Shown here: positions 1,437 to 61,360 of the stretch, piece after piece
Layout: every line of letters starts with the position of its first letter
How positions within the stretch are numbered: the first letter of the stretch is position 1
Source: a virus
Taxonomy: Duplodnaviria > Heunggongvirae > Uroviricota > Caudoviricetes
Length of the DNA stretch: 64,000 nt
IMG/VR virus record: IMGVR_UViG_3300012942_000032
Span: 58,282 to 122,281 of that record
Reading direction: 5' to 3' (one strand)
Notes under the pieces: generated by a model
Seen by the model: the letters and a program-made list of their open reading frames with translations, nothing else
Told to the model about the DNA's origin: nothing
Databases searched by the model: none
Position numbers and translations under genes: made by a program

Positions 1437-1521
1437 TGGTGCGGATGGAGGGACTCGAACCCACACGCCTTGCGGCGCCTGCTTCTAAGGCAGGTGCGGC
1501 TACCAATTACGCCACATCCGC
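1437..1521 (-). tRNA. tRNA-Leu (anticodon TAG)
   Basis: The reverse complement gives GCGGATG/CATCCGC acceptor, anticodon stem CCTGC/GCAGG with loop CTTAGAA, long variable arm, T-arm GGGTTCGAGTCCC, CCA. Confidence 0.85.
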
Positions 1522-1559
1522 TAATGTCTAAACATTGTAACATGAAGTCTGCTAATTGC

Positions 1560-1784
1560 AATTCTATTTATGATTCAATAGCAAACTTTTAGGAATTAGT
1601 GCCGGTGATTGGATTATAAGGACACCGGCGAAACCCCAGTCTATTGCTTAGGCTGCGAGAGCCACCGCGTAGACGTCGTCATTAGCTGCGACATTTTTGG
1701 TTTTTGCTGTTATTTTACATCGGAACGCCCCGATGGATTGTTCAGTCTATATCTACGCCAGAGTCGATATCCGTTAACATCCCC
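1560..1784 (-). ncRNA. ssrA: tmRNA-like coding piece (GGGG acceptor 5' strand, tRNA-like D-analog, tag reading frame)
   Basis: Minus-strand RNA begins GGGGAUGUUAACGGAUAUCGAC (compare E. coli GGGGCUGAUUCUGGAUUCGAC). A PK1-like GGGGCG...GUAAAA...GCAAAAA follows. The resume-like AAUGUC GCA then opens the frame GCA GCU AAU GAC GAC GUC UAC GCG GUG GCU CUC GCA GCC UAA, giving ANDDVYAVALAA-stop, a canonical ...ALAA degradation tag. A CCGGTG...CACCGG hairpin lies downstream. Confidence 0.65.
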
Positions 1785-1818
1785 ATAGGTGCTCGAAGCT
1801 AATTCCGAGCAGCTTGAA

Positions 1819-1895
1819 TTTGGTGGAGATGGCGGGAGTCGAACCCGCGTGTTCCGACGCTTACTTCAACATCTGAGAAATTTCTTTCTCTACAA
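1819..1895 (-). ncRNA. ssrA: tmRNA-like acceptor piece (T-arm, acceptor 3' strand, CCA); 5' boundary approximate
   Basis: Minus-strand GCGUCGGAACAC-GCGGGUUCGACUCCCGC-CAUCUCC-A-CCA resembles the E. coli tmRNA 3' end. Its 3' strand CAUCUCC pairs with GGGGAUG of the coding piece through a G3:U70 wobble. It lies 5' of the coding piece on the same strand. Confidence 0.6.
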
Positions 1896-2493
1896 TCATT
1901 CCTTTATTTACTTCAGCTAAGGAAGTAAATGAATTTTCATACATCAAACGCCTTTCTTTTGCAAAAGAACCTTCATCTAGATTCACTAGACAGCCGCCTT
2001 TACCTGCAATTCCAAAGATATCTATCAATTTTGATTCTAAAGAAAGAGCTTCTAATTCTGTCAAGCCGTCTTTAATTATTTCTACACAAATTTCTTGTCC
2101 GTATTGATTTAGCAATTGACGGATTTTCCTATGCCCGCCATTACGGTTCAAATCATAAGCTCTGTTACCACATCCTTTGCCTACATAAAAAGGCATTTTC
2201 GTTGCGCCGAATGTAGCTAGACAAGAAGTTCTAAAATCTTTTTCTACCGCAATTCTACTATTAGGTTTACAATGTGTATAAACATAATAGATTGGATTTT
2301 CATCCAATGATAATGATTGATAAACTCGACTAATATCAGTATCTATAATAGACATGCAATCTGCGAATTTCCTTCTAAAAGAAGCCCTTTTAGATTCGCC
2401 GGATTTAACATTTCCTAGATACGTCTTAACAATATTAAGAGCTTTCTTGATAGATTCGATATCTTCAGTATCAAATACTACCTTCTTTTTCAT
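1861..2493 (-). CDS. GIY-YIG family homing endonuclease (Seg/I-TevI-like), free-standing
   Basis: The motifs PIYYVYTH ... PFYVGKGCGNRAYDLNRNGGHRK ... ICVEII match the GIY / YIG / Arg / Glu signature. The stop codon lies 1 nt from the tRNA-like T-arm. Confidence 0.75.
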   Translation of the reverse strand: MKKKVVFDTEDIESIKKALNIVKTYLGNVKSGESKRASFRRKFADCMSIIDTDISRVYQSLSLDENPIYYVYTHCKPNSRIAVEKDFRTSCLATFGATKMPFYVGKGCGNRAYDLNRNGGHRKIRQLLNQYGQEICVEIIKDGLTELEALSLESKLIDIFGIAGKGGCLVNLDEGSFAKERRLMYENSFTSLAEVNKGMIVEKEISQMLK

Positions 2494-6478: not shown

Positions 6479-7600
6479 TTAATATGTGAATGGTGCCGTT
6501 GGAGGAGTGAAATCAGAAGTATATCTAGATATACCTGATGTAATACGAAATTCGTCTATATACCCGCTAAAGAACTCATTTAGGTTTTCATGACCACCAA
6601 TTTGATTTATATTCCAAGAACTAGAGTCATTTCTAACAGAAACTTGATCAATACCATTTAAATAAAGTCTAATTTCTCCTGAAATTCTACAAAGTGCTAC
6701 ATGAAACCATTCATTTAGAGGATATGAATTAGAGGTAATTCTATCAGAAGCATCATATAATACGACGCAACCGTCTTTTAGATATAATCCATATGTGTTG
6801 TTATAAATGGATAGAGTTTGATACTTTCCAGATTCTCCAATAGTTGTAGAATAAACCCATAATTCTATTGTAAAATCTGAAGGTAAATTAATCGGATCAG
6901 GATATGCTTGAAGATATGAAGAATTAAAAAAGAAACTTCCAGAACCAAATTTCTTATTATTGTGGCTAATTGTTGACCCATTGGTCACATCTGAAAGAAC
7001 CCATGATTCACCATATAAATCAGATAATGAAAATCCATCTATTTTATCAAAATGAAGGAGCGATTTAGTATATGAGAATATAATCTTTACATCTATCAAA
7101 CAATAATCTGTTGTTATAGGAGTGGAAATTTTCAAAGTAAAATTAGAAACTCCTTCGCTTGATATTGCCCCAGAAACAATCAGATTATCATCGTCAATGG
7201 AAAAATTTATTCCAGAATCTTCAGGCCCAGATACAATAGACACAGAGTAAGGTCCAGGAGTACCAGTTATGGATTTGGTGACGTCAACTGAATTTCCTAA
7301 AGGGATTGTCCCTAAATCAAGTAGTGGACCACCATCAACCACAACAGGCATTGCATAAGGAGCTCTACGTGAAGAAATTACATCATCAAGAATATCTCCA
7401 CCTCTGGCAATAATGTCAAAGACAGAATCCATATCAAGATTAGAAAATCTCCAGGTTCCATCAGAAAAGCTCTGAGTAGTTCCACACCATTCAGAGTTAA
7501 AATAAAGATCAATTGTTGTTACAAAAGGAGTACCATTACGGCTAACAATGTTAGGTGAGTCTCCTCCAAGATATCCAGTTCCTGATGGGGGCGAAATCAT
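6479..7600 (-). CDS. LamG-like (concanavalin A-like lectin/glucanase) domain protein; paralog of the plus-strand structural LamG proteins
   Basis: The C-terminal ...EWFHVALCRISGEIRLYLNG...GYIDEFRITSGISRYTSDFTPPTAPFTY is nearly identical in protein sequence to the C-terminus of 15690..16982. Confidence 0.7.
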   Translation of the reverse strand: MISPPSGTGYLGGDSPNIVSRNGTPFVTTIDLYFNSEWCGTTQSFSDGTWRFSNLDMDSVFDIIARGGDILDDVISSRRAPYAMPVVVDGGPLLDLGTIPLGNSVDVTKSITGTPGPYSVSIVSGPEDSGINFSIDDDNLIVSGAISSEGVSNFTLKISTPITTDYCLIDVKIIFSYTKSLLHFDKIDGFSLSDLYGESWVLSDVTNGSTISHNNKKFGSGSFFFNSSYLQAYPDPINLPSDFTIELWVYSTTIGESGKYQTLSIYNNTYGLYLKDGCVVLYDASDRITSNSYPLNEWFHVALCRISGEIRLYLNGIDQVSVRNDSSSWNINQIGGHENLNEFFSGYIDEFRITSGISRYTSDFTPPTAPFTY

Positions 7601-12886: not shown

Positions 12887-14725
12887 ATGGCTGGATTTAA
12901 AACTTCTATTCTAGACAAATCGCCAGTTCTATTTCTGACATTCGATGGAGATTCTTTCGATTCTGCTAGGCGAACTCTGACTGCGGTTCCTGCTCAGATC
13001 ATAGATGAATCTGGTCTAGGAAATAATGCTATCTTTCATGATGATGGTCTGAGTCCAGATTACTTTGGTTATAGAATGGGCATGCCATCAATGGTAGATC
13101 TAGAACCTGCCGATCAATATTCAATGTCATTTGGATATTATGGTGCTCAGCCTTTACATCCATCTATTTGGGCGAAAACATATCTAGAAGTTCCGCATGC
13201 AGATTCCTTCCAATTTCCTAATTATGGAAGTTTTTCTGTAACAGCAATGATCAATAAAGCTTCTAATGAAAATACCTTTAGAAACTATTATTCATCAAAC
13301 TGGAATACGAATACCCTTACCAGACCTATTATCAGAAAAGGTCTGGCTTTCAAATTAGATTACATTGATCCTTGGTCAGGAAATGATTATCTCCAAGTCA
13401 CCTATCCTGCAGGCACTTTGACTTGGAATGTTTACACAGATGGAACATTCTTTGGAAAGAATATGTTTGTTGCATTCTCCTGGAATGTTCAACAGCAACC
13501 TAATGGGATCTATTCTGCTACTGCAACTCTTTGGGTGAATGGAATCGTTGTCGCAACAAAGTCCCATACGTTCTTAGATACCTATCCTGCATCTAATGTT
13601 TCTAGTCCATGGGAGATTGCAGGAACTGCCGCAGCAAGCCCTAATGGTAACAATTATGATGATAGACAGACAAGTTCACTTGTTTTAGATCAAATTGCTG
13701 TCTATCAAGATCCATTGACAGATGACGATATTCTTTTCTTATTCAAGAAGATCAGAAGCTATGAGAATATGGTTATTGCTCATAGACCGTCCCAATTCTG
13801 GACACTTGGAGATCTAGAGTCTCAGACAAGTAATTCTATGGTACCTTTGGTAGGTTCCCTGACCGGAAAATATCTAGGCGGAACTGCTCGTATTCTAAGA
13901 CAGCAGACTGGTCCAACGAATATTGTCAATAGTTCAGGGACCAGATTCCAGGCAGGTGGTGTAGCAGTAGTTCACGATTCAAGTAATGATGCAAATCCAA
14001 TCTTTAATCCATCTGGTGATTATACAATTGAATTTTGGTTTACAGCCGAGAATGGTGATCAGAGTGTAATGATGTCAATGCAGTCTGACAATTATCCATT
14101 TACTGGTATGCTCATTCAAATGAATACAAAACAGGATGTGTATTCTAATGGAATGATTCAGTTTAAGGTAACAGATAGTTATACAGTGAGCACAAGGGAT
14201 CTAAAAGATGATAACATCAATAGATTCCAATTTAATGATGGCTATTGGCACCATTGCGTAGCTATTAGAAGAGGATCTAATATTGAGCTTTGGTTAGATG
14301 GCGTCCTTCATAATACCACATCTGCACCTGTAGGGACAATTGATAATTCTGGTCAGCTTTATTTGATGGGTATGATGCCTGGAGAATTGAATACGACTGG
14401 TTGTATGTCTGAATTTGTTCTTTACAATTATGCTCTTGCACCAGCAATGATCAGAGCTCATTATTCATATGCTCTGGTTTATCGTATTCATGGTCAGGTT
14501 ACCTTGCAGGGCGTTCCTTATCAAGCAAACGTCAGAGTTTATAATCATGAAAGTGGTGAGCTAATTAAGACAATTCAGTCCAATCAATCAGATGGTAATT
14601 ATCTGATTGATCTTTATGATAATTCGTTGATTGATTTGATGGTTTTAAATACACAAGATAGAAATGTGAGATATCGTGCCTATGGTCCGATTACTCCAGC
14701 AGAATATGAGGATCTACCTGCATGA
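12887..14725 (+). CDS. structural-like protein with two LamG-like domains and a C-terminal beta-sandwich (612 aa)
   Basis: LamG_3-type endings LVLDQIAVYQDPLTDDDI and MSEFVLYNYALAPAMI. Confidence 0.7.
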   Translation: MAGFKTSILDKSPVLFLTFDGDSFDSARRTLTAVPAQIIDESGLGNNAIFHDDGLSPDYFGYRMGMPSMVDLEPADQYSMSFGYYGAQPLHPSIWAKTYLEVPHADSFQFPNYGSFSVTAMINKASNENTFRNYYSSNWNTNTLTRPIIRKGLAFKLDYIDPWSGNDYLQVTYPAGTLTWNVYTDGTFFGKNMFVAFSWNVQQQPNGIYSATATLWVNGIVVATKSHTFLDTYPASNVSSPWEIAGTAAASPNGNNYDDRQTSSLVLDQIAVYQDPLTDDDILFLFKKIRSYENMVIAHRPSQFWTLGDLESQTSNSMVPLVGSLTGKYLGGTARILRQQTGPTNIVNSSGTRFQAGGVAVVHDSSNDANPIFNPSGDYTIEFWFTAENGDQSVMMSMQSDNYPFTGMLIQMNTKQDVYSNGMIQFKVTDSYTVSTRDLKDDNINRFQFNDGYWHHCVAIRRGSNIELWLDGVLHNTTSAPVGTIDNSGQLYLMGMMPGELNTTGCMSEFVLYNYALAPAMIRAHYSYALVYRIHGQVTLQGVPYQANVRVYNHESGELIKTIQSNQSDGNYLIDLYDNSLIDLMVLNTQDRNVRYRAYGPITPAEYEDLPA

Positions 14726-15690
14726 CAGCTTTTACTTGGAATACTCCTGCTCCACCTAGTCCCATGAGTGCAAATCTCTTGAGTAACTGGGTGACTTTGT
14801 TTCAAGATGTTGATGCTAGAATGCTTGCAGCTGGGTTTGTTCAGACTGCTGATACTGGCCAATTAGATATATCGACAATTTCATCATTCTTAAGTAACTC
14901 TGGAGATTTCTTCTACGGTTACAAGATGTATGCTTTGAATGATTCCTTGCAAGATACTTTGCCTGTCTATATCAAGGCGGAATTTGGTTCTGGACCAGCT
15001 GGTAATGCTACTTCAAACTCCGCCTACGTCACACCAAAAATTAGATGGTCTTTCGGAGTATCTAATTATCCTATTCTCCCATCAGATGGATCGGGAAATC
15101 TATCAAGCGCTATTGGTACTGGCACACATCCAAGTACCTCCACCAATGGTGGAGGTACTTTTAGTACCTCCACCAATGTGACTTCTTATTGCACCTACAA
15201 TGAAAATCTAGGTTTTTACTCATTGATTTATGGGCCTGGAATGATTGGAGCATTACAAGGTCTGGGAACTTGGTTCATTCAAAGAACAATTGATGAAACA
15301 ACAGGCCTTCCAAATGCAGATGGAGTGTGCATCTATTACATCAATAATACAACAGGTTCTTCGACTACAACCGGGCAAGCAATAAATTCTATTTTCACTA
15401 GCAGTTCTTATACTTCAGGTGTATCAACCTCGTGGGCACAAAGAGTAGGAGGAATAGCAAATACACAAGAAGGAACTACCGTGTATCTTCAGAGAGCATG
15501 GATGTTATCTCCTCGCCAAAGACCTTGTTATGGTTTAGCTACCTACAATAATTCTAATCTCTCTGCTGGCTCACAATTTCCTCTTCAAACTCTAGGTACA
15601 GAAACTAATAATTTCGTCGCCCTTGGCTCTCTTAGTGGATATCCGGACGGAAGTGGTTTAAGCGCCTCCTTTGCTATGCTTTTTGAATAA
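14722..15690 (+). CDS. hypothetical structural-like protein, Ser/Thr/Gly-rich (322 aa)
   Basis: ORF track; translationally coupled (ATGA overlap) with its neighbours. Confidence 0.6.
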   Translation: MTAFTWNTPAPPSPMSANLLSNWVTLFQDVDARMLAAGFVQTADTGQLDISTISSFLSNSGDFFYGYKMYALNDSLQDTLPVYIKAEFGSGPAGNATSNSAYVTPKIRWSFGVSNYPILPSDGSGNLSSAIGTGTHPSTSTNGGGTFSTSTNVTSYCTYNENLGFYSLIYGPGMIGALQGLGTWFIQRTIDETTGLPNADGVCIYYINNTTGSSTTTGQAINSIFTSSSYTSGVSTSWAQRVGGIANTQEGTTVYLQRAWMLSPRQRPCYGLATYNNSNLSAGSQFPLQTLGTETNNFVALGSLSGYPDGSGLSASFAMLFE

Positions 15691-16982
15691 TGACTGACTA
15701 TATCATCTCAAGCCCATCTAATACTTCACTTTCTGGAGTTCTTAGAGACGCAAAATTATCTTTCTCCCTAGAAAATAGAACTTTCTTTAGGGGAAACGGA
15801 TACTTCGCTGGAAAGATTTTAGATTCCAACAATCATCCTCAAGAAGGTGCGACTGTACAGATCTGGCACAGAGCAACGAATAGCCTTGTAGGAACGACTG
15901 TAACAGATGATAATGGTGATTATACCTTTGTCAATGTTCCGGTTGGTGAGATGTTTGATCTGATTGCTATCGATCCAACCGGAAAATGGGAAAGAAAAGT
16001 ATCTTCAAGTAGATACCCTCAATCAGGTTGGTATCCTGATTTGACGATGACGACTAGAGGAAGATATCTTTATGATCTTGGAGAAAAAGTAAACCAAGAC
16101 GCCAGAGGTTTTGGTGGTAATGGTTCTTATGCTTACACAATTGATAATTCCACTGAAGGTTTGATCTGTGATGGATCATCAGGTCACATCACAAGTGATC
16201 CTCTGTCTGTGTCAGGTGAAATAATTGAATATAATGTTACGGTTGGAGATGGATCAGGAAAAACTTTAAGCAAACCAATGTCATTCAAAACGTATGATGA
16301 TCCATATCATAGCTCTGTTGTTAGTTTGATGCATTTTGATGGCCTGTACTCTCCAACTGTTTTTACAGACGAATTGAATAATTCTTGGGTTAGAGGCGGT
16401 ACGCCTGTTATAAGCAATGCCAGTCCTATCTTCGGAGTAGGTAGCTATTATTCTTCGTCTACTTCTGCTAATAGAATCACATGGACGTGCGGTTCTGCTC
16501 CTGTTTTAGGAGACGGAGATTTTACACTTGAATGTTGGTTTATTCCTAAAGTTCTAACTTCTGCTTCCCAATGGCTAGGAATTGTTAATAGGAGAGTATC
16601 GAATACTAATGCATCTTGGTCTCTTTATCAAGATCAGAATAATGCAGGTATCAATTTTGGAATAACATTCACAGGTCAAGTAACTGATCTAACCTATTCT
16701 AAATGGACAACACCTCTTGTCTTGAATACGATATATCATTTGGCGGTATGCAGAGTAGACAATATTATCACACTGTATGTCAATGGTGAAGCAGGAAATA
16801 CAATTGATGTAGGCACATCAGCAGAATATAAATCTACTAATTCTATAGTTCTTGGTGCATTGGACACTTCCGGTGGAGCATCATCTATAAATGGTTACAT
16901 TGATGAAATGAGAATCACGCAAGGTGTTGCAAGGTACACTTCTAATTTTACTCCACCTACTGCTCCATTCACTTTGAACTAA
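15690..16982 (+). CDS. structural-like protein with carboxypeptidase-regulatory-like N-domain and C-terminal LamG domain (430 aa)
   Basis: FAGKILDSNNHPQEGATVQIW...DDNGDYTF is CarboxypepD_reg-like. The C-terminus is GYIDEMRITQGVARYTSNFTPPTAPFTLN. Confidence 0.7.
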   Translation: MTDYIISSPSNTSLSGVLRDAKLSFSLENRTFFRGNGYFAGKILDSNNHPQEGATVQIWHRATNSLVGTTVTDDNGDYTFVNVPVGEMFDLIAIDPTGKWERKVSSSRYPQSGWYPDLTMTTRGRYLYDLGEKVNQDARGFGGNGSYAYTIDNSTEGLICDGSSGHITSDPLSVSGEIIEYNVTVGDGSGKTLSKPMSFKTYDDPYHSSVVSLMHFDGLYSPTVFTDELNNSWVRGGTPVISNASPIFGVGSYYSSSTSANRITWTCGSAPVLGDGDFTLECWFIPKVLTSASQWLGIVNRRVSNTNASWSLYQDQNNAGINFGITFTGQVTDLTYSKWTTPLVLNTIYHLAVCRVDNIITLYVNGEAGNTIDVGTSAEYKSTNSIVLGALDTSGGASSINGYIDEMRITQGVARYTSNFTPPTAPFTLN

Positions 16983-33188: not shown

Positions 33189-34400
33189 ATGGTGATTAAT
33201 ATGTTGACACAGACAAGAACTAAAATCTATACAGATCAGACTCCTGGAATTCCGTTAGTTAATTCTAATCCAGGAACTCTTGTTACAATGCTAGATGCCG
33301 TTCTAGTAAACGGTTTCAATTCTAAATCTATTGAAAATTTCGTTCTTTCAAGTGGTGTAGCAACTATCACTTCGACTTCTCATGGATATGTTTCTCTTCA
33401 AGCAGGTACGCCAGATCAATATTTTCCAGTAATTCAGATTGTAGGTCTAGACCCTGCTCTAGATGGTCAATACAGAATTCAGAGTATTCCTGACGCTAAT
33501 ACTATCACTATCAATGTTGATTCCCCTGATAAGACTTTGACAAGTACAGGATCATTTCAATTCGCACCAGCTGGATGGTCTATTGCCTACACAGATAATT
33601 CTCATAAAAGAGTATATCGTCAGATAAACGTTCAGGGTTCCAGATTCTATCTAAGAATCGACGATTCCAAATCTAGAGCTTTGATCACTGTCTATAAAAC
33701 CATGACGGACATAGACACCGGAACATGGCCTGTGCCTGCAACATCTCAATCTGCAGATAATCAACTAGAATGGGGTCATGTTGTATATTCATCTTCTGGT
33801 CCATCCAAATTCTTCAATATCTTTGCAGATGATTTGATTTTCTATTTGTTCATGGAAAATCCAAATGCAAACCAATTTGACACTAACAATTATGTTGCTA
33901 TGGTTTTCGGAGATATTATCACTCTCAATGAGAGTGATAATACCGCTTGTGTCATTTCTGGTGCAGTTACCAAAAACTACACTGGAGAGAACGTATGGAG
34001 ATATTATGGTTTTACTACCAATTCAACTACTGGAAATTATTTGGTAGATGATCCAAATGCTGCTGCATCTACTCCTTTAGCATCAATGGTTCTTTACAAT
34101 ACAGGAAGGCCCATCCTTCCTTTTCAAGATCCGTTCACACAAACCATTACATACACTTCGTTGTATCTCGGAGATACAACGAACAACTCAATTAGGGGCA
34201 TTGTACCTGGCATGTACGATCCTTGGTTTATTACTCCACATAATGGTAATAATTCAGGTTCGTTACCATCGCCAGTGACCAATAGATCAGTCATTCCTTT
34301 GGATGATCAAAATTATGGCATATTGACATATTCTGCAACGACAGATTCAGATAGAGCATTTGGTTCAGCTTTAGTTTTCTCAGGTAGTGATTGGCGATGA
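33189..34400 (+). CDS. virion structural protein (baseplate/tail-fibre module), 403 aa
   Basis: First gene of the plus-strand late operon; ATGA-coupled to the next gene. Confidence 0.6.
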   Translation: MVINMLTQTRTKIYTDQTPGIPLVNSNPGTLVTMLDAVLVNGFNSKSIENFVLSSGVATITSTSHGYVSLQAGTPDQYFPVIQIVGLDPALDGQYRIQSIPDANTITINVDSPDKTLTSTGSFQFAPAGWSIAYTDNSHKRVYRQINVQGSRFYLRIDDSKSRALITVYKTMTDIDTGTWPVPATSQSADNQLEWGHVVYSSSGPSKFFNIFADDLIFYLFMENPNANQFDTNNYVAMVFGDIITLNESDNTACVISGAVTKNYTGENVWRYYGFTTNSTTGNYLVDDPNAAASTPLASMVLYNTGRPILPFQDPFTQTITYTSLYLGDTTNNSIRGIVPGMYDPWFITPHNGNNSGSLPSPVTNRSVIPLDDQNYGILTYSATTDSDRAFGSALVFSGSDWR

Positions 34401-36379
34401 TTATCAATGAATTATTTCAAAGTGGAAATATCAAAATCGCAGGAGAATCGTATCTGCGAGGAACCATCCTGAAAGAACCAAATAGATCGTATAAAGATTT
34501 TGCTGTTTATTTGGTTGACAATTATACACCATCTATTCTTTTGACAAAAAGAATAGATGGTGATGGCACATTTACGATCTATAATCTAAATGCTCAAGTC
34601 GATTACACCTTGTTAGCAAAAGATAGAAAATATCAATTCAATGATATCGTCTATACCAATGTCCAACCTATTCCGTATCAATTAACTTTAGAAAATAATC
34701 TACAAATTTCTGAAGATAGTACCAGAGTAAATGGCTCTATCAAAATTAACAATGGTCTGGGCCCATTTACTCTATCTCAAATTAGTGGTTCTATTCCTGA
34801 CGAATTTGTATATGCTATTGACGACGGGGAGGGGGGGGGACCTGAAATTATAATTCAAGGTTCAGGTAATATTTCACAATCATATGAATCATGGATTAAA
34901 ATTACATCAGCGAATGGGTATTCAAAGGTTATTCCAGTTTATATTGATCCCTTTGGTACCACAGGAAACATCAAGAATTTCACTGGTGAACAATTGAAAT
35001 GTAATTTTCAGAATTCTAGAAATAATATTCTTGCTTCGGCGCCTGTTGCTTACTGGAATTTTAATGATGCTGCTGGTAGCACTTCTATCGCAGATTATGG
35101 ATCAGGTGGTAATCCTCTGGTAATTACGGGATCAAGTGTTGCTCTTCAAACAAACGGATACTATAGTGAAACAGGTCAATCTGTGTTCCTTAATGGGTCA
35201 GCAGGTTATCTTAAACCTGCATCTTCTACAACCTTCCAATATCTAGGTGATATCAGCGTCTTTGCATGCTTCAGTTTGAATAGAATTCCTACTGGTTCGC
35301 AATATATTTCTCTTATGGATTGCTATGCTTCAGGTGAAACTGAAGCAGTAAATGCAACATTAAATATAGAAATTTTCCCTGCCTTTTTGAAAGTATTTCA
35401 CGAAAATGGTGCTGGTGTAGATACAAATATCCAAATTGCATATCAATGGCAAGCAGGTGTTCCGTATCAAATATTCATTTGCCGAGATACAACCTTACTA
35501 AGATATGCTGTCTACATCAATGGAGATTTTCTAGGATATTATTCATATATCAATAATCCTACTGGCGGCACGACCAGCACTTTAGCAGTAGGTTTTACGC
35601 CCGTTTCTGATACCAATGCAAATAATGCTCTTATTACTATTGATGAGCTTGCATATTGGCAACGATATCTTTCTCAAGAAGATATTCAGAACATGGTTGC
35701 TTTCAATGAAAGCAACGTAGATTGGTCAGGAACAACCATTAAATCTAGGCTGAGATTCGATGACGATGTTGTAGGTTCATCATCAATTACAGATGATTAT
35801 TCTAATACATGGACAGTTAATGGAGTAGGTTTTGCAACTGTTTCTGCTGATGGTTATAAAGGAAATTGTCTATATTTTCCTGGTGGTATTGCGGGGAATG
35901 TCTTGTCTTCTACACCTTGGACATCGATAGGAACTCAGGATTGGTGCATTCAATTCTTCATGAAAATGTCTCAGACGACTCAGACTTCTAGAACAATCAT
36001 TGATTTTAGACCTACAAATAGTAATGGATCTTATCCTTGGATAGGTTTCGATAATAGTAATAATTTTGCATTCTATTATCAATCTGCCTATCAAATTACT
36101 ACACCTAATCCAGCTGATGATAAATGGCATCACATTGCATGCACTAAGAATAAAGGAGTAATTCGTTTATTCTTAGATGGAAATTTAGTAGGAGCATATT
36201 TTAATTCTTCTACATGTCCAGATTCTAGCACTGTGCGATTAGGTGTTTCTTCAACTGGTGCAGGTAATACTTTAGCATCAGCTTTTCTGGGATATGTAGA
36301 TGAAATTAGAGTAGATGTGGGAAATGCGATCTACACCAAAAATTTCACACCTTCATTGCCATATGGAGCAGAAATCTGA
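34397..36379 (+). CDS. structural protein with C-terminal LamG-like domain (660 aa)
   Basis: The C-terminus GYVDEIRVDVGNAIYTKNFTPSLPYGAEI is homologous to the other LamG tails. Start taken at the ATG overlapping the upstream stop. Confidence 0.65.
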   Translation: MIINELFQSGNIKIAGESYLRGTILKEPNRSYKDFAVYLVDNYTPSILLTKRIDGDGTFTIYNLNAQVDYTLLAKDRKYQFNDIVYTNVQPIPYQLTLENNLQISEDSTRVNGSIKINNGLGPFTLSQISGSIPDEFVYAIDDGEGGGPEIIIQGSGNISQSYESWIKITSANGYSKVIPVYIDPFGTTGNIKNFTGEQLKCNFQNSRNNILASAPVAYWNFNDAAGSTSIADYGSGGNPLVITGSSVALQTNGYYSETGQSVFLNGSAGYLKPASSTTFQYLGDISVFACFSLNRIPTGSQYISLMDCYASGETEAVNATLNIEIFPAFLKVFHENGAGVDTNIQIAYQWQAGVPYQIFICRDTTLLRYAVYINGDFLGYYSYINNPTGGTTSTLAVGFTPVSDTNANNALITIDELAYWQRYLSQEDIQNMVAFNESNVDWSGTTIKSRLRFDDDVVGSSSITDDYSNTWTVNGVGFATVSADGYKGNCLYFPGGIAGNVLSSTPWTSIGTQDWCIQFFMKMSQTTQTSRTIIDFRPTNSNGSYPWIGFDNSNNFAFYYQSAYQITTPNPADDKWHHIACTKNKGVIRLFLDGNLVGAYFNSSTCPDSSTVRLGVSSTGAGNTLASAFLGYVDEIRVDVGNAIYTKNFTPSLPYGAEI

Positions 36380-59671: not shown

Positions 59672-59717
59672 ACCCGCCTCGCCTCTCTTTGAAGCGCAAA
59701 TAGGCGGGTCTTCTTGA
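59672..59717 (+). terminator. terminator-like hairpin after the tube gene
   Basis: CCCGCCT...AGGCGGG followed by TCTTCTT. Confidence 0.5.
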
Positions 59718-59746: not shown

Positions 59747-61360
59747 GTGATGGAGCTTTTCGGCTACGAACTTAAAAAGAAGAAAGTCTCTAATCCGTTA
59801 GAGACATTTCAAATCGACAGAGAAGATATTGCGTCAGATGCAGTAATTGTTTCTGATGGTCCTGTCGATGGCTCTGGAATGTCGGTATTCAGCTATGATG
59901 CTACATCCATTCCTGGCGATGAAATTGAACTTATCTCAACATACAGATCAATTTCCCTTTCTTCTGAAATTGATGAAGCTTTGCAGGAAATCAGAAACGA
60001 AGTATTCATTTTCGATGTTCCCGGCAAGAGGGCATTTGAAATTGACTTCAAAGATGAACCTACGTCACCTTCATCTTCGATCAAAAAGAAGATTACAGAA
60101 GAATTTCATAATCTTTATAATGTAGTGAATTTTGACGAACGTGGGCTATCATATTTTGATGATTGGTATATTGATAGCAAGCTCTATCTTCATAAGATCA
60201 TTGACAGTAAGCAACCTAAGCTAGGTATTCAGAAAGTTGTGGCAATTGATCCTCTGCGAATTCGCAGAGTGAAGTTCATGCCTAAGTCTGATGCTAATGG
60301 TGTCTATGACATCTCCAAAGTTCAAGAATGGTATATCTATTCTAATCACTTTGCCAAGAATATTATGCCTGGAACTATTACTCCTATTGAGTTTGGTTCT
60401 GAAATTGCAGGTCTAAGAATTAAACCTGATGCTATTTGTTATACAGATAGTGGTGTAATTGATAGAGCAACAGGCAAGACAATCGGATATCTAAGAAAGG
60501 CAATCGTTCCTTATAACAATCTGCGAATGATGGAAGATGCAATGTTAATCTTCCGCGTTGTTCGTGCTCCTCAACGTCGTGCGATCTATATTGACGTCGC
60601 GGGTATGCAGAAGAACAAAGCTGAGCAGTACATGAAGGATATGATGTCTCGCTTCAAAAATAAGATGGTTTATGACAGCAAGACAGGTCAACTTGCTGAT
60701 CGTCGCAATGTCATGTCTATGCTTGAAGATTATTGGTTACCACGTCGTGACGGCGGTAAGGGAACTGAAATCGAGACAATTGATGGCCAGAATGCTCAAG
60801 ATATCATGGATGAAGTAGAATATTACAGAGACAAGTTATGGCGCGCTCTAAATGTTCCTCGTTCAAGATTTGGACAAGATGATGCGCCATCTTTCCCATT
60901 TGGTAAGGGTATTGAAATCCAAAGAGACGAATATCGTTTTAGAAAGTTCTTAGATAAGATTAGATCAAGATTCTTGATGTTTATGAAGGATCTTCTGAAG
61001 ACTCAACTTATCTTGAAGAATATTATTACACCTGATGATTGGGATCAGATCAGTAAATCCATTGTTTGGACTTTCACGGAAGATAATGCTTTCGTTGAAT
61101 ACAAAGAGTCAGAAATCTTAAATAATAGGTTAGTAACCTTAAATCAAATTCAACCGTATATTGGAAAGTTCTTTTCCCAAGAATGGATTAAAAAGAACGT
61201 TCTTCGTCAGACAGACCAAGAAATTTCTGATATGCAGACTCAAATGGATAGTGAGCCTCCTTATGATATAGGTCTACCTGGAAGTGAGGACGGTCCACCG
61301 GGTGGTAGCTCAGAACCGATCCAAGATACAGACACAGATACAGGAAGCGATAATGACTAA
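59747..61360 (+). CDS. 20: portal vertex protein gp20
   Basis: YFDDWYIDSKLYLHKIID, LEDYWLPRRDGGKGTEIETIDG, KLWRALNVPRSRF and DEYRFRKFL align with T4 gp20 ([38 protein letters not shown]). Confidence 0.9.
   Translation: MMELFGYELKKKKVSNPLETFQIDREDIASDAVIVSDGPVDGSGMSVFSYDATSIPGDEIELISTYRSISLSSEIDEALQEIRNEVFIFDVPGKRAFEIDFKDEPTSPSSSIKKKITEEFHNLYNVVNFDERGLSYFDDWYIDSKLYLHKIIDSKQPKLGIQKVVAIDPLRIRRVKFMPKSDANGVYDISKVQEWYIYSNHFAKNIMPGTITPIEFGSEIAGLRIKPDAICYTDSGVIDRATGKTIGYLRKAIVPYNNLRMMEDAMLIFRVVRAPQRRAIYIDVAGMQKNKAEQYMKDMMSRFKNKMVYDSKTGQLADRRNVMSMLEDYWLPRRDGGKGTEIETIDGQNAQDIMDEVEYYRDKLWRALNVPRSRFGQDDAPSFPFGKGIEIQRDEYRFRKFLDKIRSRFLMFMKDLLKTQLILKNIITPDDWDQISKSIVWTFTEDNAFVEYKESEILNNRLVTLNQIQPYIGKFFSQEWIKKNVLRQTDQEISDMQTQMDSEPPYDIGLPGSEDGPPGGSSEPIQDTDTDTGSDND

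What the first reader, a model, noticed from the sequence alone, without database searches (positions are those of the whole stretch)
1560..1900. tmRNA (ssrA)-like gene with circularly permuted, two-piece architecture in a phage tRNA cluster
Four observations on the minus strand support this.
1. At plus 1784 going downward, a GGGGAUGUUAACGGAUAUCGAC... module resembles the tmRNA 5' acceptor and D-analog.
2. A PK1-like region follows, then a resume-like AAUGUC|GCA opening a frame that reads ANDDVYAVALAA-UAA. This is a textbook ...YA.ALAA proteolysis tag.
3. Only about 120 nt with one hairpin follow before tRNA-Leu. A one-piece tmRNA would need about 200 nt of PK2-4 plus a T-arm here.
4. The tRNA-like T-arm, acceptor 3' strand and CCA (GCGGGUUCGACUCCCGC-CAUCUCC-A-CCA) lie upstream of the GGGG module, at 1860->1819 and separated by 34 nt. 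The acceptor strands pair with a G3:U70 wobble, the AlaRS identity element.

This order (acceptor piece before coding piece) is the hallmark of permuted two-piece tmRNAs. These are known from alphaproteobacteria, some betaproteobacteria and marine cyanobacteria. A phage-borne copy next to tRNA genes is unusual and may report on host lineage or on phage manipulation of trans-translation.
Basis: partly seen in the sequence, partly recalled or inferred. Interest (0 to 1): 0.9.

Follow-up and report, generated by a model that had tools for sequence, protein, structure and literature searches.

The report
Phage-borne two-piece tmRNA gene
A large T4-like phage carries a real, circularly permuted (two-piece) ribosome-rescue RNA gene of the betaproteobacterial type; such phage copies are rare, but they are already documented in its cultured relatives.

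Summary
On the minus strand at about 1884-1592, ARAGORN calls a permuted tmRNA and Rfam's permuted-tmRNA model matches full length (63.7 bits against a threshold of 47; E 6e-10). The T-arm, acceptor 3' strand and CCA (1848-1821) lie 36 nt upstream of the GGGG 5' acceptor (1784). G3:U70 is present. The tag ORF reads (A)ANDDVYAVALAA-UAA and is followed by a pseudoknot.

The window is an uncultured T4-like myovirus of about 157 kb. At the same syntenic spot in the tRNA cluster, two closer metagenomic relatives (L203, L201) carry the same gene. So do the cultured Stenotrophomonas (Mendera/Marzo group) and Xanthomonas (BUDD, X1) phages. Helices co-vary strongly: 97% of cells are paired and 10 of 18 pairs show compensatory changes. 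Several relatives pass the betaproteobacterial two-piece model (RF01850).

Phage two-piece tmRNAs are already published (Buchholz 2022; Marzo announcement), so this is a new, unusually diverged member of a known kind.

It does not report host lineage. Its cultured relatives infect Xanthomonadales, whose own ssrA appears to be one-piece, and a Variovorax-infecting relative has no tmRNA.

Locally, a GIY-YIG-like ORF has replaced the gene's own promoter and overlaps its 5' end.

The parts
1592..1884 (-). Permuted (two-piece) tmRNA gene as a whole: acceptor piece, intervening sequence, coding piece. The 5' and 3' ends are approximate.
   Evidence: Rfam RF04321 matches 1648-1884 at 63.7 bits against a gathering score of 47. 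ARAGORN calls tmRNA* at 1557-1914. The conserved post-pseudoknot AAUUCC motif ends at 1592.
1868..1873 (-). P2 distal helix, 3' strand (GAUGUU), in the acceptor piece. It pairs with AAC[A]AUC at 1742-1736 and needs one bulged A. It lies inside the last codons of the upstream ORF.
   Evidence: The equivalent 6-bp helix co-varies in relatives: GGUUGU/ACAACC, GUGGU/ACCAC, CAUGGU/ACCAUG, CGUGGU/ACCACG, GGUCGU/ACGACU, GGUAGU/ACUACC (read from sequences). In the window it is imperfect.
1853..1859 (-). P2a helix, 3' strand (CGUCGGA).
   Evidence: Pairs 7/7 with UCUGGCG at 1762-1756. All six P2a pairs counted at fixed offset show changes on both sides across 16 sequences.
1849..1852 (-). Junction before the T stem. 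It reads ACAC (GGAACAC if the preceding GGA is unpaired), where 18 of 18 other genes compared have GGAC.
   Evidence: The same GGAACAC junction is found in the close relative L201, while L203 has GGAC.
1832..1848 (-). T-arm: stem GCGGG/CCCGC, loop UUCGACU.
   Evidence: Two of the five stem pairs change on both sides across homologues, and 100% of cells are paired.
1821..1831 (-). Acceptor stem 3' strand CAUCUCC (1831-1825), discriminator A (1824), encoded CCA (1823-1821). This is the 3' end of the acceptor piece.
1785..1820 (-). Intervening sequence, 36 nt, predicted to be removed during processing. It contains a GCUCG/CGAGC hairpin.
   Evidence: The intervening sequence is 25-36 nt in beta-type loci, 36 nt in L201, and 31-127 nt in other phage copies.
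1778..1784 (-). Acceptor stem 5' strand GGGGAUG. G1 at 1784 is the predicted RNase P site, and G3 pairs with U70.
   Evidence: G3:U70 is invariant in 16 of 16 sequences, and positions 4 and 5 change compensatorily.
1763..1777 (-). D-loop analogue UUAACGGAUAUCGAC. It is 2 nt longer than the family norm ...GGUUUCGAC.
1756..1762 (-). P2a helix, 5' strand (UCUGGCG).
1736..1742 (-). P2 distal helix, 5' strand (AACAAUC).
   Evidence: Read from the sequence.
1718..1735 (-). Hairpin at the PK1 position: CAUCGG-GGCGUU-CCGAUG. A second pseudoknot stem (GCGUU with AAC[A]GC at about 1712-1707) is possible but untestable because it is invariant.
   Evidence: The core UCGGGGCGUUCCGA is invariant in the window, L203 and L201. 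The closing pairs co-vary: CA..UG, CU..AG, GA..UC.
1648..1692 (-). Resume context GUC (1692-1690) and tag ORF: GCA 1689-1687 through GCC, then stop UAA 1650-1648. It encodes AANDDVYAVALAA, or ANDDVYAVALAA if translation resumes at GCU 1686-1684.
   Evidence: The block AAAUGUC-GCN-GCN-AAY-GAY and the frame are conserved in Mendera, BUDD, X1, L070, L073, L074, L201 and L203.
1601..1638 (-). PK2, an H-type pseudoknot after the tag. S1 is UGGGG (1638-1634) with CCUUA (1621-1617). S2 is GCCGGUG (1629-1623) with CACCGGC (1607-1601). The loop UAAUCCAAU matches the beta-type consensus.
   Evidence: (local RF01850 match at 1601-1662). S2 co-varies: GCCACUU/AAGUGGC in L203, CGCCAG/CUGGCG in Mendera, and others.
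1592..1597 (-). Conserved AAUUCC motif just after PK2, of unknown role. The 3' end of the coding piece lies somewhere between here and 1522.
1861..2493 (-). 210-aa ORF, GIY-YIG-like and a putative free-standing homing endonuclease. Its last roughly 8 codons and its TAA stop overlap the 5' end of the acceptor piece. It occupies the position where relatives have the tmRNA promoter.
   Evidence: ORF. PHROG 314 'homing endonuclease', E 1.4e-5. Pfam LEM-3_GIY-YIG, E 1.2e-3, below cut-off. Comparison with L201 and L203.
1437..1521 (-). tRNA-Leu(tag), the next gene downstream. Its RNase P site sets the outermost possible 3' limit of the tmRNA coding piece.

Best explanation
This is a genuine phage-encoded ssrA gene in the circularly permuted form that yields a two-piece tmRNA. 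It is of the betaproteobacterial structural type, and it was inherited vertically within a clade of T4-like myoviruses rather than captured recently from the host.

Inferred mechanism, all from established tmRNA biology:
- The region is transcribed by read-through from upstream, because the gene's own promoter has been replaced by a homing-endonuclease-like ORF.
- RNase P cuts 5' of G1 (1784).
- The acceptor piece is trimmed to its encoded CCA (1821), and the 36-nt spacer is discarded.
- The downstream tRNA-Leu processing site helps to free the 3' end.
- The two RNAs stay together through the 7-bp acceptor stem, the 7-bp P2a helix and a weaker distal P2 helix.
- Host AlaRS charges the RNA (G3:U70, discriminator A73).
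- Host SmpB and EF-Tu deliver it to ribosomes stalled on broken mRNAs.
- Translation resumes at GCA/GCU and appends (A)ANDDVYAVALAA.
- The ...LAA end directs the product to ClpXP-type proteolysis, and the UAA stop releases the ribosome.

Shown here: gene identity, architecture, conservation and covariation, synteny, and phage context.

Inferred, not shown: expression, processing, charging, use of host SmpB, and the benefit to the phage. The likely benefit is to sustain ribosome rescue while host and phage mRNAs are being cleaved.
For: Detectors:
- ARAGORN calls a permuted tmRNA.
- RF04321 matches full length above threshold, E 5.7e-10.
- The one-piece model RF00023 matches only the 3' tRNA-like part, below threshold.

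Phage context:
- T4-type terminase, sheath, gp6, gp7 and portal genes.
- TerL is 62% identical to Menderavirus.
- The identical neighbouring protein occurs on a contig of 156,730 bp.
- The gene lies inside a tRNA cluster between phage genes and the RNR gene.

Synteny and homologues, all at the same position:
- L203 at 85 bits and L201 at 78 bits.
- Mendera at 118 bits on RF04321 and 92 bits on RF01850.
- BUDD and X1.
- Further members L070, L073, L074, DLP_6 and JGB6.

Covariation on fixed-offset constructs of 16 sequences:
- 97.2% of cells are paired, against 79.3% in shuffles and 47-56% in slid registers.
- 10 of 18 pairs change on both sides.
- The score is 0.469 against 0.113, reached by 0 of 500 shuffles.
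- G3:U70 is present in 16 of 16.
- The PK1 hairpin and PK2 stems co-vary among the window, L203 and L201.

Tag:
- The frame and the AANDD start are conserved across about 50% nucleotide divergence.

Beta type:
- The PK2 motif and the 36-nt spacer match beta-type loci.

Phage-specific:
- The family composite motif is absent from 185,579 bacterial species genomes.
Against: - The window's copy is the most diverged of those found. It has the lowest RF04321 score of the ten phage-family copies scored and is at most 58% identical to GenBank and IMG/VR copies.
- It fails the beta-specific model, with only 9.7 bits locally.
- The otherwise universal GGAC before the T stem reads (GGA)ACAC.
- The D-analogue is 2 nt longer than in relatives.
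- 7 nt of the acceptor-piece 5' region and the gene's own promoter are missing.
- The distal P2 helix needs a bulge.
- Unconstrained MFE cofolding prefers an alternative pairing by about 5 kcal/mol.
- No promoter-like site lies directly upstream.
- No phage SmpB was found, so function depends on an unknown host's SmpB.
- There are no expression data.
Confidence: 0.8

Rival explanations
1. Decaying remnant. It was a functional phage tmRNA until a homing-endonuclease gene landed upstream, removing the promoter and the 5' end of the acceptor piece. It is now drifting towards a pseudogene.
For: - The promoter seen in L201 (TTGACA-17-TATTAT) and 7 nt of the conserved GAAGCCAAUCGA region are absent, replaced by the ORF's 3' end.
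- It has the lowest model score in the family.
- The junction and D-analogue are unusual.
- The sister copy L201 has an aberrant T-loop (GGCGGUG) and mismatches in P2a. ARAGORN did not call it, so decay does occur in this subclade.
Against: - Every core element is intact in the window: a 7/7 acceptor stem with G3:U70, A73-CCA, a canonical T-loop, a 7/7 P2a helix, an open tag frame with a canonical ...ALAA end and stop, and both PK2 stems.
- Differences from L203 and L201 within helices are compensatory. That pattern indicates selection, not drift.
- Read-through transcription is normal for T4-type tRNA clusters (general knowledge).
Confidence: 0.12
2. A decoy rather than a rescuer. The RNA mainly titrates host SmpB or AlaRS, or competes with host tmRNA, as proposed for the tRNA-like-domain-only RNA of mycobacteriophage DS6A. 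Tagging would be irrelevant.
For: - Phage copies lack a partner SmpB.
- The cultured relatives' hosts appear to use a differently organised, one-piece tmRNA.
- The DS6A precedent is described in PMC4131195 and PMC11915505.
Against: A decoy needs no mRNA-like half. Here the resume context, the tag frame, the stop codon, and PK1 and PK2 are conserved and co-vary across the family.
Confidence: 0.05
3. Not a tmRNA gene. On this view it is a broken tRNA, or a tmRNA 3' fragment of the kind temperate elements carry as an attachment site, lying by chance next to a GGGG-rich segment and a short ORF.
For: The T-arm/CCA 30-mer alone matches many phage att sites and tRNAs.
Against: - The covariance model matches full length and spans both halves.
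- The two halves co-vary with each other across 16 genes.
- No integrase context was noted among the window proteins that were scanned. The genome is T4-like and the locus is syntenic in relatives.
Confidence: 0.01
4. A standard one-piece tmRNA whose 5' half lies further upstream, with the downstream GGGG module being coincidental.
For: RF00023 aligns its 3' end to 1821-2050.
Against: - That match is below threshold (27.8-30.7 bits against 47), consists of gaps except for the T-arm region, and runs into a protein-coding ORF.
- No RF00023 hit appears in the whole-window gathering search.
Confidence: 0.01

Closest known systems
tmRNA of Stenotrophomonas T4-like phages (Menderavirus: Marzo, Mendera, Moby, IME-SM1, YB07, Bhz51, Yut2/3), of Xanthomonas phages BUDD and X1, and of the uncultured relatives L203 and L201
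   Same: - Same permuted order.
- Same syntenic position: DUF7277 gene, small ORFs, tRNA cluster, RNR gene.
- Same resume block AAAUGUC-GCN-GCN-AAY-GAY.
- Tags start AANDD/AANDA.
- Same PK2 architecture.
- Already reported as a tmRNA or as permuted.
   Different: - Only 48-49% nucleotide identity to the cultured copies and 67-71% to L203 and L201.
- Shorter spacer: 36 nt against 56-127 nt in Mendera, Moby, BUDD and X1 (L201 also has 36 nt, L203 52 nt).
- (GGA)ACAC junction, shared only with L201.
- Truncated acceptor-piece 5' region and no promoter of its own, because of the adjoining GIY-YIG-like ORF.
- The tag ends in the canonical ...VALAA, where relatives have ...VRIAA, ...ARYA and ...VRLRA.
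Betaproteobacterial two-piece tmRNA (Rfam RF01850 beta_tmRNA; the lineage I recall as described by Sharkady & Williams 2004, which could not be opened here)
   Same: - Gene order.
- Short intervening sequence: 25-36 nt in beta-type loci.
- P2 layout.
- PK2 with GGGG...CCUU(G/A)U(U/A)A(C/U)C(A/C)AA loop motifs.
- AND... tag ending in LAA.
- The relatives Mendera and L073 pass RF01850.
   Different: - The window itself does not pass RF01850.
- It has a 6-nt GUCGCN insertion at the resume site relative to the beta consensus.
- It lacks the terminal GC-rich hairpin and the promoter that the bacterial model includes.
- It lies in a phage genome, and the family composite motif is absent from bacterial genomes.
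Two-piece tmRNA of marine myophages (OM43 phage Melnitz, pelagimyophages); other ARAGORN-permuted phage copies, from Caulobacter phages and some cyanophages, are listed in the same paper's Table S1
   Same: A phage-encoded permuted ssrA in large lytic phages. It is often near tRNA genes and has no phage smpB. The gene type need not match the host's own lineage (PMC9004378).
   Different: - The Melnitz gene is phylogenetically alphaproteobacterial (SAR11-like) and is associated with a glutamine riboswitch.
- The window's gene is beta-type, and no riboswitch hit was found.
One-piece tmRNAs of mycobacteriophages (Bxz1 group) and Bacillus phage G
   Same: Phage-borne ssrA without smpB (PMC4131195).
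   Different: Standard, unpermuted gene order.

Membership tests
tmRNA, permuted/two-piece form (Rfam RF04321) | Covariance-model score at or above the curated gathering score, full-length match | tested here: met
   63.7 bits against 47, model positions 1-213 of 213, E 5.7e-10.
tmRNA, permuted/two-piece form (Rfam RF04321) | Permuted order on one strand: T-arm, acceptor 3' strand and CCA lie upstream of the acceptor 5' strand, separated by a short intervening sequence | tested here: met
   CCA ends at 1821 and G1 is at 1784, giving a 36-nt spacer. ARAGORN flags the permuted form.
tmRNA, permuted/two-piece form (Rfam RF04321) | Alanine identity: 7-bp acceptor stem with G3:U70, discriminator A, CCA | tested here: met
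   GGGGAUG/CAUCUCC-A-CCA. G3:U70 is invariant in 16 of 16 homologues while positions 4 and 5 co-vary.
tmRNA, permuted/two-piece form (Rfam RF04321) | T-arm with a conserved T-loop | tested here: met
   GCGGG-UUCGACU-CCCGC.
tmRNA, permuted/two-piece form (Rfam RF04321) | Inter-piece P2 helix joining the acceptor and coding pieces | tested here: met
   P2a is 7/7 in the window, and all six P2a pairs counted at fixed offset change on both sides across 16 sequences. The distal P2 helix is only imperfect in the window.
tmRNA, permuted/two-piece form (Rfam RF04321) | Tag reading frame: GCN resume codon, hydrophobic ...AA C-terminus, stop codon, conserved in relatives | tested here: met
   (A)ANDDVYAVALAA-UAA. 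The frame is conserved in nine related phage copies. Which codon resumes translation (GCA or GCU) is unresolved.
tmRNA, permuted/two-piece form (Rfam RF04321) | Pseudoknot PK1 upstream of the resume codon | tested here: inconclusive
   The hairpin at 1735-1718 is supported by covariation of its closing pairs. The candidate second stem is invariant and needs a bulge, so it cannot be tested.
tmRNA, permuted/two-piece form (Rfam RF04321) | Processing into two RNAs, alanylation, SmpB binding, trans-translation | not testable with these tools
   Requires RNA and biochemical experiments.
Betaproteobacterial-type two-piece tmRNA (Rfam RF01850) | Score at or above gathering (84 bits) | tested here: not met
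   Only a local 9.7-bit match at PK2. Relatives Mendera (92.1) and L073 (101.6) do pass. The window is therefore filed as beta-type by homology to them, not as an RF01850 member.
Betaproteobacterial-type two-piece tmRNA (Rfam RF01850) | Post-tag H-type pseudoknot with the GGGG...CCUUGUUACCAAA-like motif | tested here: met
   [UGGGG]..(GCCGGUG)U[CCUUA]UAAUCCAAU(CACCGGC).
Betaproteobacterial-type two-piece tmRNA (Rfam RF01850) | Own promoter abutting the acceptor-piece 5' end, and a terminal GC-rich hairpin | tested here: not met
   There is no promoter-like site upstream, because the position is occupied by the ORF's 3' end. There is no terminal hairpin. L201 keeps the promoter and JGB6 keeps the terminator.
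Standard one-piece tmRNA (Rfam RF00023) | Acceptor 5' strand, tag ORF and pseudoknots upstream of the T-arm; score at or above 47 bits | tested here: not met
   27.8-30.7 bits, covering the 3' tRNA-like part only. The 5' half lies downstream of the CCA.

The most novel reading that the evidence does not exclude
This is a phage-lineage-specific, beta-type two-piece tmRNA that T4-like phages have kept under purifying selection through host shifts. That includes shifts into hosts whose own tmRNA is one-piece. It therefore works with heterologous host SmpB and AlaRS.

Its tag is being tuned by the phage. The N-terminal AANDD is fixed, while the C-terminal degron varies between relatives: ...VALAA, ...LALAA, ...VRIAA, ...VRRAA, ...ARYA, ...VRLRA. 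Some of these ends look like poor ClpX degrons. That would suggest ribosome rescue is decoupled from proteolysis in some phages.

The window's copy would show that the RNA still functions after losing its promoter and part of P2 to a homing-endonuclease invasion.
Probability: 0.25. Interest if true: 0.5.

Novelty: new member of a known kind. Interest (0 to 1): 0.3.

Why it matters
- It adds a highly diverged, uncultured branch (three contigs at about 41-43% G+C) to the small set of phage-borne two-piece tmRNAs.
- It shows that in this T4-like clade the gene is inherited with the phage, not with the host. This cautions against using tmRNA architecture to predict hosts.
- It documents that the tmRNA/tRNA cluster is a landing site for free-standing GIY-YIG endonuclease genes, which can remodel the RNA gene's ends.
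- Practically, several GenBank relatives leave the gene unannotated or cover it with 'hypothetical protein' CDSs: Mendera, Moby, IME-SM1, YB07, BUCT608, BUDD, X1, DLP_6 and JGB6.
- It does not open a new class of mechanism.

Tried and rejected
- blastn of the locus against 50,697 GenBank phages found only tRNA-Leu and T-arm matches. An 8-kb structural region gave no nucleotide match.
- IMG/VR scans with window-specific motifs found nothing: the 5' acceptor/D-analogue, the back-translated tag and the neighbouring protein.
- The single metagenome scan, with the 20-nt resume block, returned only chance matches. No tmRNA was found in the 80 loci listed, so that scan was wasted.
- Both bacterial-genome scans found nothing. 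For the family composite motif this is informative. For the Xanthomonadales tag I recalled as ANDDNYG..NF, my recollection was evidently inexact. The hosts' own tmRNA form therefore rests on indirect primer evidence and general knowledge.
- The defining paper for the beta lineage (PMC516066) is not held. The tmRNA-database supplements gave no taxon table.
- The sample accessions are not mentioned in any held paper, so environment and host remain unknown.
- Unconstrained MFE cofolding recovers the acceptor stem but not the T-arm or P2a. I therefore did not use thermodynamic prediction as evidence.
- The free pseudoknot search mis-assigned PK2 in BUDD, DLP_6, JGB6 and L014, so I used only the consistent cases.
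- tblastx found no protein-level relation between the held stretches of L070, L073 and L074 and the window.
- A terminal helix between the upstream leader (AGGAAU, about 1904-1899) and the post-PK2 AUUCCU appears in cofolds made with ARAGORN's boundaries. It lies inside the ORF and I could not see an equivalent pairing in L201 or L203, so I rejected it as a feature.
Full report
**The observation**

In transcript order it contains:

- a T stem-loop, GCGGG-UUCGACU-CCCGC (1848-1832);
- the acceptor 3' strand CAUCUCC (1831-1825), discriminator A and an encoded CCA (1824-1821);
- GGGGAUG at 1784-1778, followed by a D-loop analogue ending in CGAC;
- a hairpin at the PK1 position (1735-1718);
- the block AAAUGUC|GCA GCU AAU GAC GAC GUC UAC GCG GUG GCU CUC GCA GCC UAA, with the stop at 1650-1648.

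Read from the GCA the peptide is AANDDVYAVALAA. tRNA-Leu(tag) begins 126 nt after the stop.

ARAGORN calls a permuted tmRNA at 1557-1914. Rfam's permuted-tmRNA model RF04321 matches all 213 positions at 63.7 bits against a gathering score of 47, with E 5.7e-10 for the whole 64-kb window against all 4227 families. The one-piece model RF00023 aligns only the 3' tRNA-like end, below threshold.

**Context**

The window is phage DNA:

- It encodes a T4-type large terminase, tail sheath, gp6- and gp7-like baseplate proteins and a T4-type portal.
- It comes from a 110,955-bp metagenomic contig. An identical neighbouring protein also occurs on a 156,730-bp contig.
- It has no nucleotide-level relative among GenBank phages.
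- Its TerL is 62% identical to Stenotrophomonas Menderavirus phages, 58% to Variovorax phage V45v66 and Acidovorax phage ACP17, and 56% to Xanthomonas phages BUDD and X1.

The tmRNA heads a tRNA cluster (Leu-tag, Val, Leu-taa, Ile, Phe, Thr) that lies between small phage ORFs and the ribonucleotide reductase gene. It is therefore phage-borne and not a host flank.

**Relatives**

The same interval (DUF7277 gene, small ORFs, tRNA cluster, RNR) in Mendera, BUDD and X1 holds an ARAGORN-permuted tmRNA. Those three GenBank records do not annotate it. Rfam confirms these genes, and Mendera's copy also passes the betaproteobacterial two-piece model RF01850 over its full length (92.1 bits against 84).

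A conserved resume block led to three further members in phage tRNA clusters in IMG/VR: L070, L073 and L074. blastn with Mendera's gene added Stenotrophomonas phage DLP_6 and Xanthomonas phage JGB6.

A protein search with the conserved neighbour gene found five closer uncultured relatives. Two of their contigs span the interval, and both carry the gene at the same place:

| Contig | RF04321 score | Tag | Notes |
|---|---|---|---|
| L203 | 85 bits | AANDAVYEVRLRA | Downstream tRNA order identical to the window's contig |
| L201 | 78 bits | AANDDVYAPLALAA | ARAGORN did not call it |

With the intervening sequence removed, the window's gene is 67-71% identical to these two. It is only 45-58% identical to every other copy. 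It is a diverged branch of one phage-borne family.

**Structure and selection**

I extracted helix strands at fixed offsets from conserved anchors, without searching for pairs, from 16 distinct genes. These were the phage family plus beta-type loci from IMG/VR. The pair count gave:

- 97.2% of cells form standard pairs, against 79.3% in shuffles and 47-56% when the partner is slid by 1-3 columns.
- 10 of 18 pairs change on both sides.
- The covariation score is 0.469 against 0.113, reached by 0 of 500 shuffles.
- G3:U70 is invariant, while acceptor positions 4 and 5 change compensatorily.

One caveat applies to that count. The acceptor 5' strand was picked by complementarity in my script, so that helix is partly circular. 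P2a and the T-arm are not affected.

Among the window, L203 and L201 the evidence continues:

- The PK1 hairpin core is invariant and its closing pairs co-vary.
- PK2 stem 2 co-varies (GCCGGUG/CACCGGC against GCCACUU/AAGUGGC).
- All three acceptor stems differ yet pair perfectly.

Its loop motifs match the beta-type consensus. The 36-nt spacer is also typical of beta-type genes, which have 25-36 nt.

Thermodynamic cofolding always gives the inter-piece acceptor stem. It otherwise prefers an alternative by about 5 kcal/mol, so I do not rely on it.

**What is odd about the window's copy**

- The junction before the T stem reads (GGA)ACAC, where 18 other genes have GGAC. L201 shares this, so it is a subclade trait.
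- The D-analogue is 2 nt longer.
- 7 nt of the conserved acceptor-piece 5' region are missing, and the distal P2 helix needs a bulge.
- The gene has no promoter of its own. L201 has a TTGACA-17-TATTAT promoter abutting the acceptor piece, as in the bacterial beta model. The window instead has the last codons and the TAA stop of a 210-aa GIY-YIG-like ORF at that position.

L201 has a different, textbook GIY-YIG gene just upstream of its promoter, and L203 has none. The cluster is evidently a landing site for free-standing endonuclease genes. From memory, this recalls T4 segB in the T4 tRNA region.

These features raise a modest possibility that the window's copy is decaying. However, all of its core elements are intact, and its differences from sister copies within helices are compensatory.

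**How it most likely works**

All of this is inferred from established tmRNA biology:

1. The region is transcribed by read-through.
2. RNase P cuts at G1784, the acceptor piece is trimmed to the encoded CCA, and the spacer is lost.
3. The two RNAs are held together by the acceptor stem and P2.
4. Host AlaRS charges the RNA through G3:U70 and A73.
5. Host SmpB and EF-Tu deliver it to stalled ribosomes.
6. The (A)ANDDVYAVALAA tag is added, translation terminates at UAA, and the product is degraded through the ...LAA end.

No SmpB homologue was found in the window or the adjoining 3 kb. That search is a soft negative, because the query was my recalled E. coli SmpB sequence.

**Comparison with what is known, and novelty**

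Phage two-piece tmRNAs are on record:

- Buchholz et al. 2022 found tmRNA genes in 402 of 18,146 phage genomes, representing 133 unique tmRNA structures. ARAGORN classed 53 of those as two-piece.
- Their Table S1 lists Mendera, Moby, YB07, IME-SM1, DLP_6 and XacN1 as 'Permuted'.
- The Marzo announcement reports one tmRNA of 'Betaproteobacter class'.
- GenBank annotates the gene in Marzo, Bhz51 and Yut2/3.
- My own IMG/VR scan with one narrow pattern found 58 contigs, of which ARAGORN called 55 permuted.

This is therefore a new, diverged member of a known kind.

**Does it report host lineage?**

The evidence says no:

- The family-specific composite motif is absent from 185,579 bacterial species genomes.
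- The cultured carriers infect Xanthomonadales. Chromosomal ssrA of Stenotrophomonas was amplified with a forward primer at the tmRNA 5' end and a reverse primer in the T-arm. That works only for a one-piece gene order. This evidence is indirect.
- The Variovorax-infecting relative has no tmRNA anywhere in its genome.
- Acidovorax phage ACP17 has none in the 50 kb that include the syntenic region.

The host of the window's phage remains unknown.

**Verdict**

Novelty is low to moderate. The interest lies mainly in the divergence of this copy, the vertical inheritance of the gene in a phage clade, and the endonuclease-driven remodelling of the gene's 5' end.

Noticed in passing
window 1861-2493 (-): A 210-aa ORF with weak GIY-YIG/homing-endonuclease similarity (PHROG 314, E 1.4e-5; Pfam LEM-3_GIY-YIG, E 1.2e-3, below cut-off). 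It ends inside the tmRNA acceptor piece and sits where relatives have the tmRNA promoter. It has no blastp similarity to the GIY-YIG ORF at the same place in L201.
   Followed up: partly
L201 14795-15545 (+): In this close relative, the 5' half of tRNA-Leu(tag) (GCGGATGTGGCGTAACTGGTAGCCGCAC) is followed by a 213-aa ORF (14836-15477). Only after that comes a tRNA-Leu(tag) call (15468-15545, weak at 33.6 bits). The tRNA gene therefore appears split or duplicated by an ORF insertion. No group I intron model hit was seen.
   Followed up: partly
L201 14393-14631 (+): This relative's tmRNA has an aberrant T-loop (GGCGGUG instead of UUCGANU) and two mismatches in P2a. ARAGORN does not call it. It may be a decaying copy or an assembly error.
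   Followed up: partly
window 59673-59709 (+): An Rfam 'abiF RNA' match just above threshold (39.4 bits against 37). It lies in the leader immediately upstream of the T4-type portal gene (59747-61360), so it is probably a fortuitous hairpin or a 5'-UTR element.
   Followed up: partly
window 1534-1561 (-): A sigma-70-like site, TTGCAA-16-TACAAT with an extended TG, lies between the tmRNA and tRNA-Leu(tag). The number of such sites in the region is not above shuffles.
   Followed up: no
window 6479-7600 (-), 12887-14725 (+), 15690-16982 (+), 34391-36379 (+): At least three large proteins carry concanavalin-like Laminin_G_3 domains by Pfam scan, and the source contig's precomputed annotation gives the same family for a fourth (6479-7600). 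They are probably tail fibres or receptor-binding proteins. The 612-aa one is 43-44% identical to proteins of BUDD and Menderavirus.
   Followed up: no
GenBank records MN098328, MN095772, KR560069, MK580972, MZ042490, ON758385, OQ427096, KU682439, OQ436456 (loci L061, L072, L067, L062, L065, L194, L195): The permuted tmRNA is unannotated in these phage records. In Moby, BUDD and JGB6 a 'hypothetical protein' CDS is drawn over it, and Ps15 labels it 'tRNA-OTHER'.
   Followed up: yes
PV558790.1 (L064, L196-L199); NC_041997.1 100000-149999 (L063): Variovorax phage V45v66, a clade member with a betaproteobacterial host, has tRNAs but no tmRNA in its whole genome. Acidovorax phage ACP17 has neither tRNA nor tmRNA in the 50 kb that include the syntenic RNR region.
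   Followed up: partly
PMC8928761 (Marzo announcement): [quoted passage not shown] This conflicts with primer evidence for a one-piece chromosomal ssrA (PMC4342816). It may reflect phage sequence filed under the host's name.
   Followed up: partly
L044 118-405 (-), L054 5118-5405 (-): Very short permuted tmRNAs (288 nt, tag ANDNFALAA) embedded in phage tRNA arrays and overlapping a tRNA-Ile call. L044 passes RF04321 only (76 bits); L054 was not scanned with Rfam. They belong to a different phage lineage from the one studied here.
   Followed up: no
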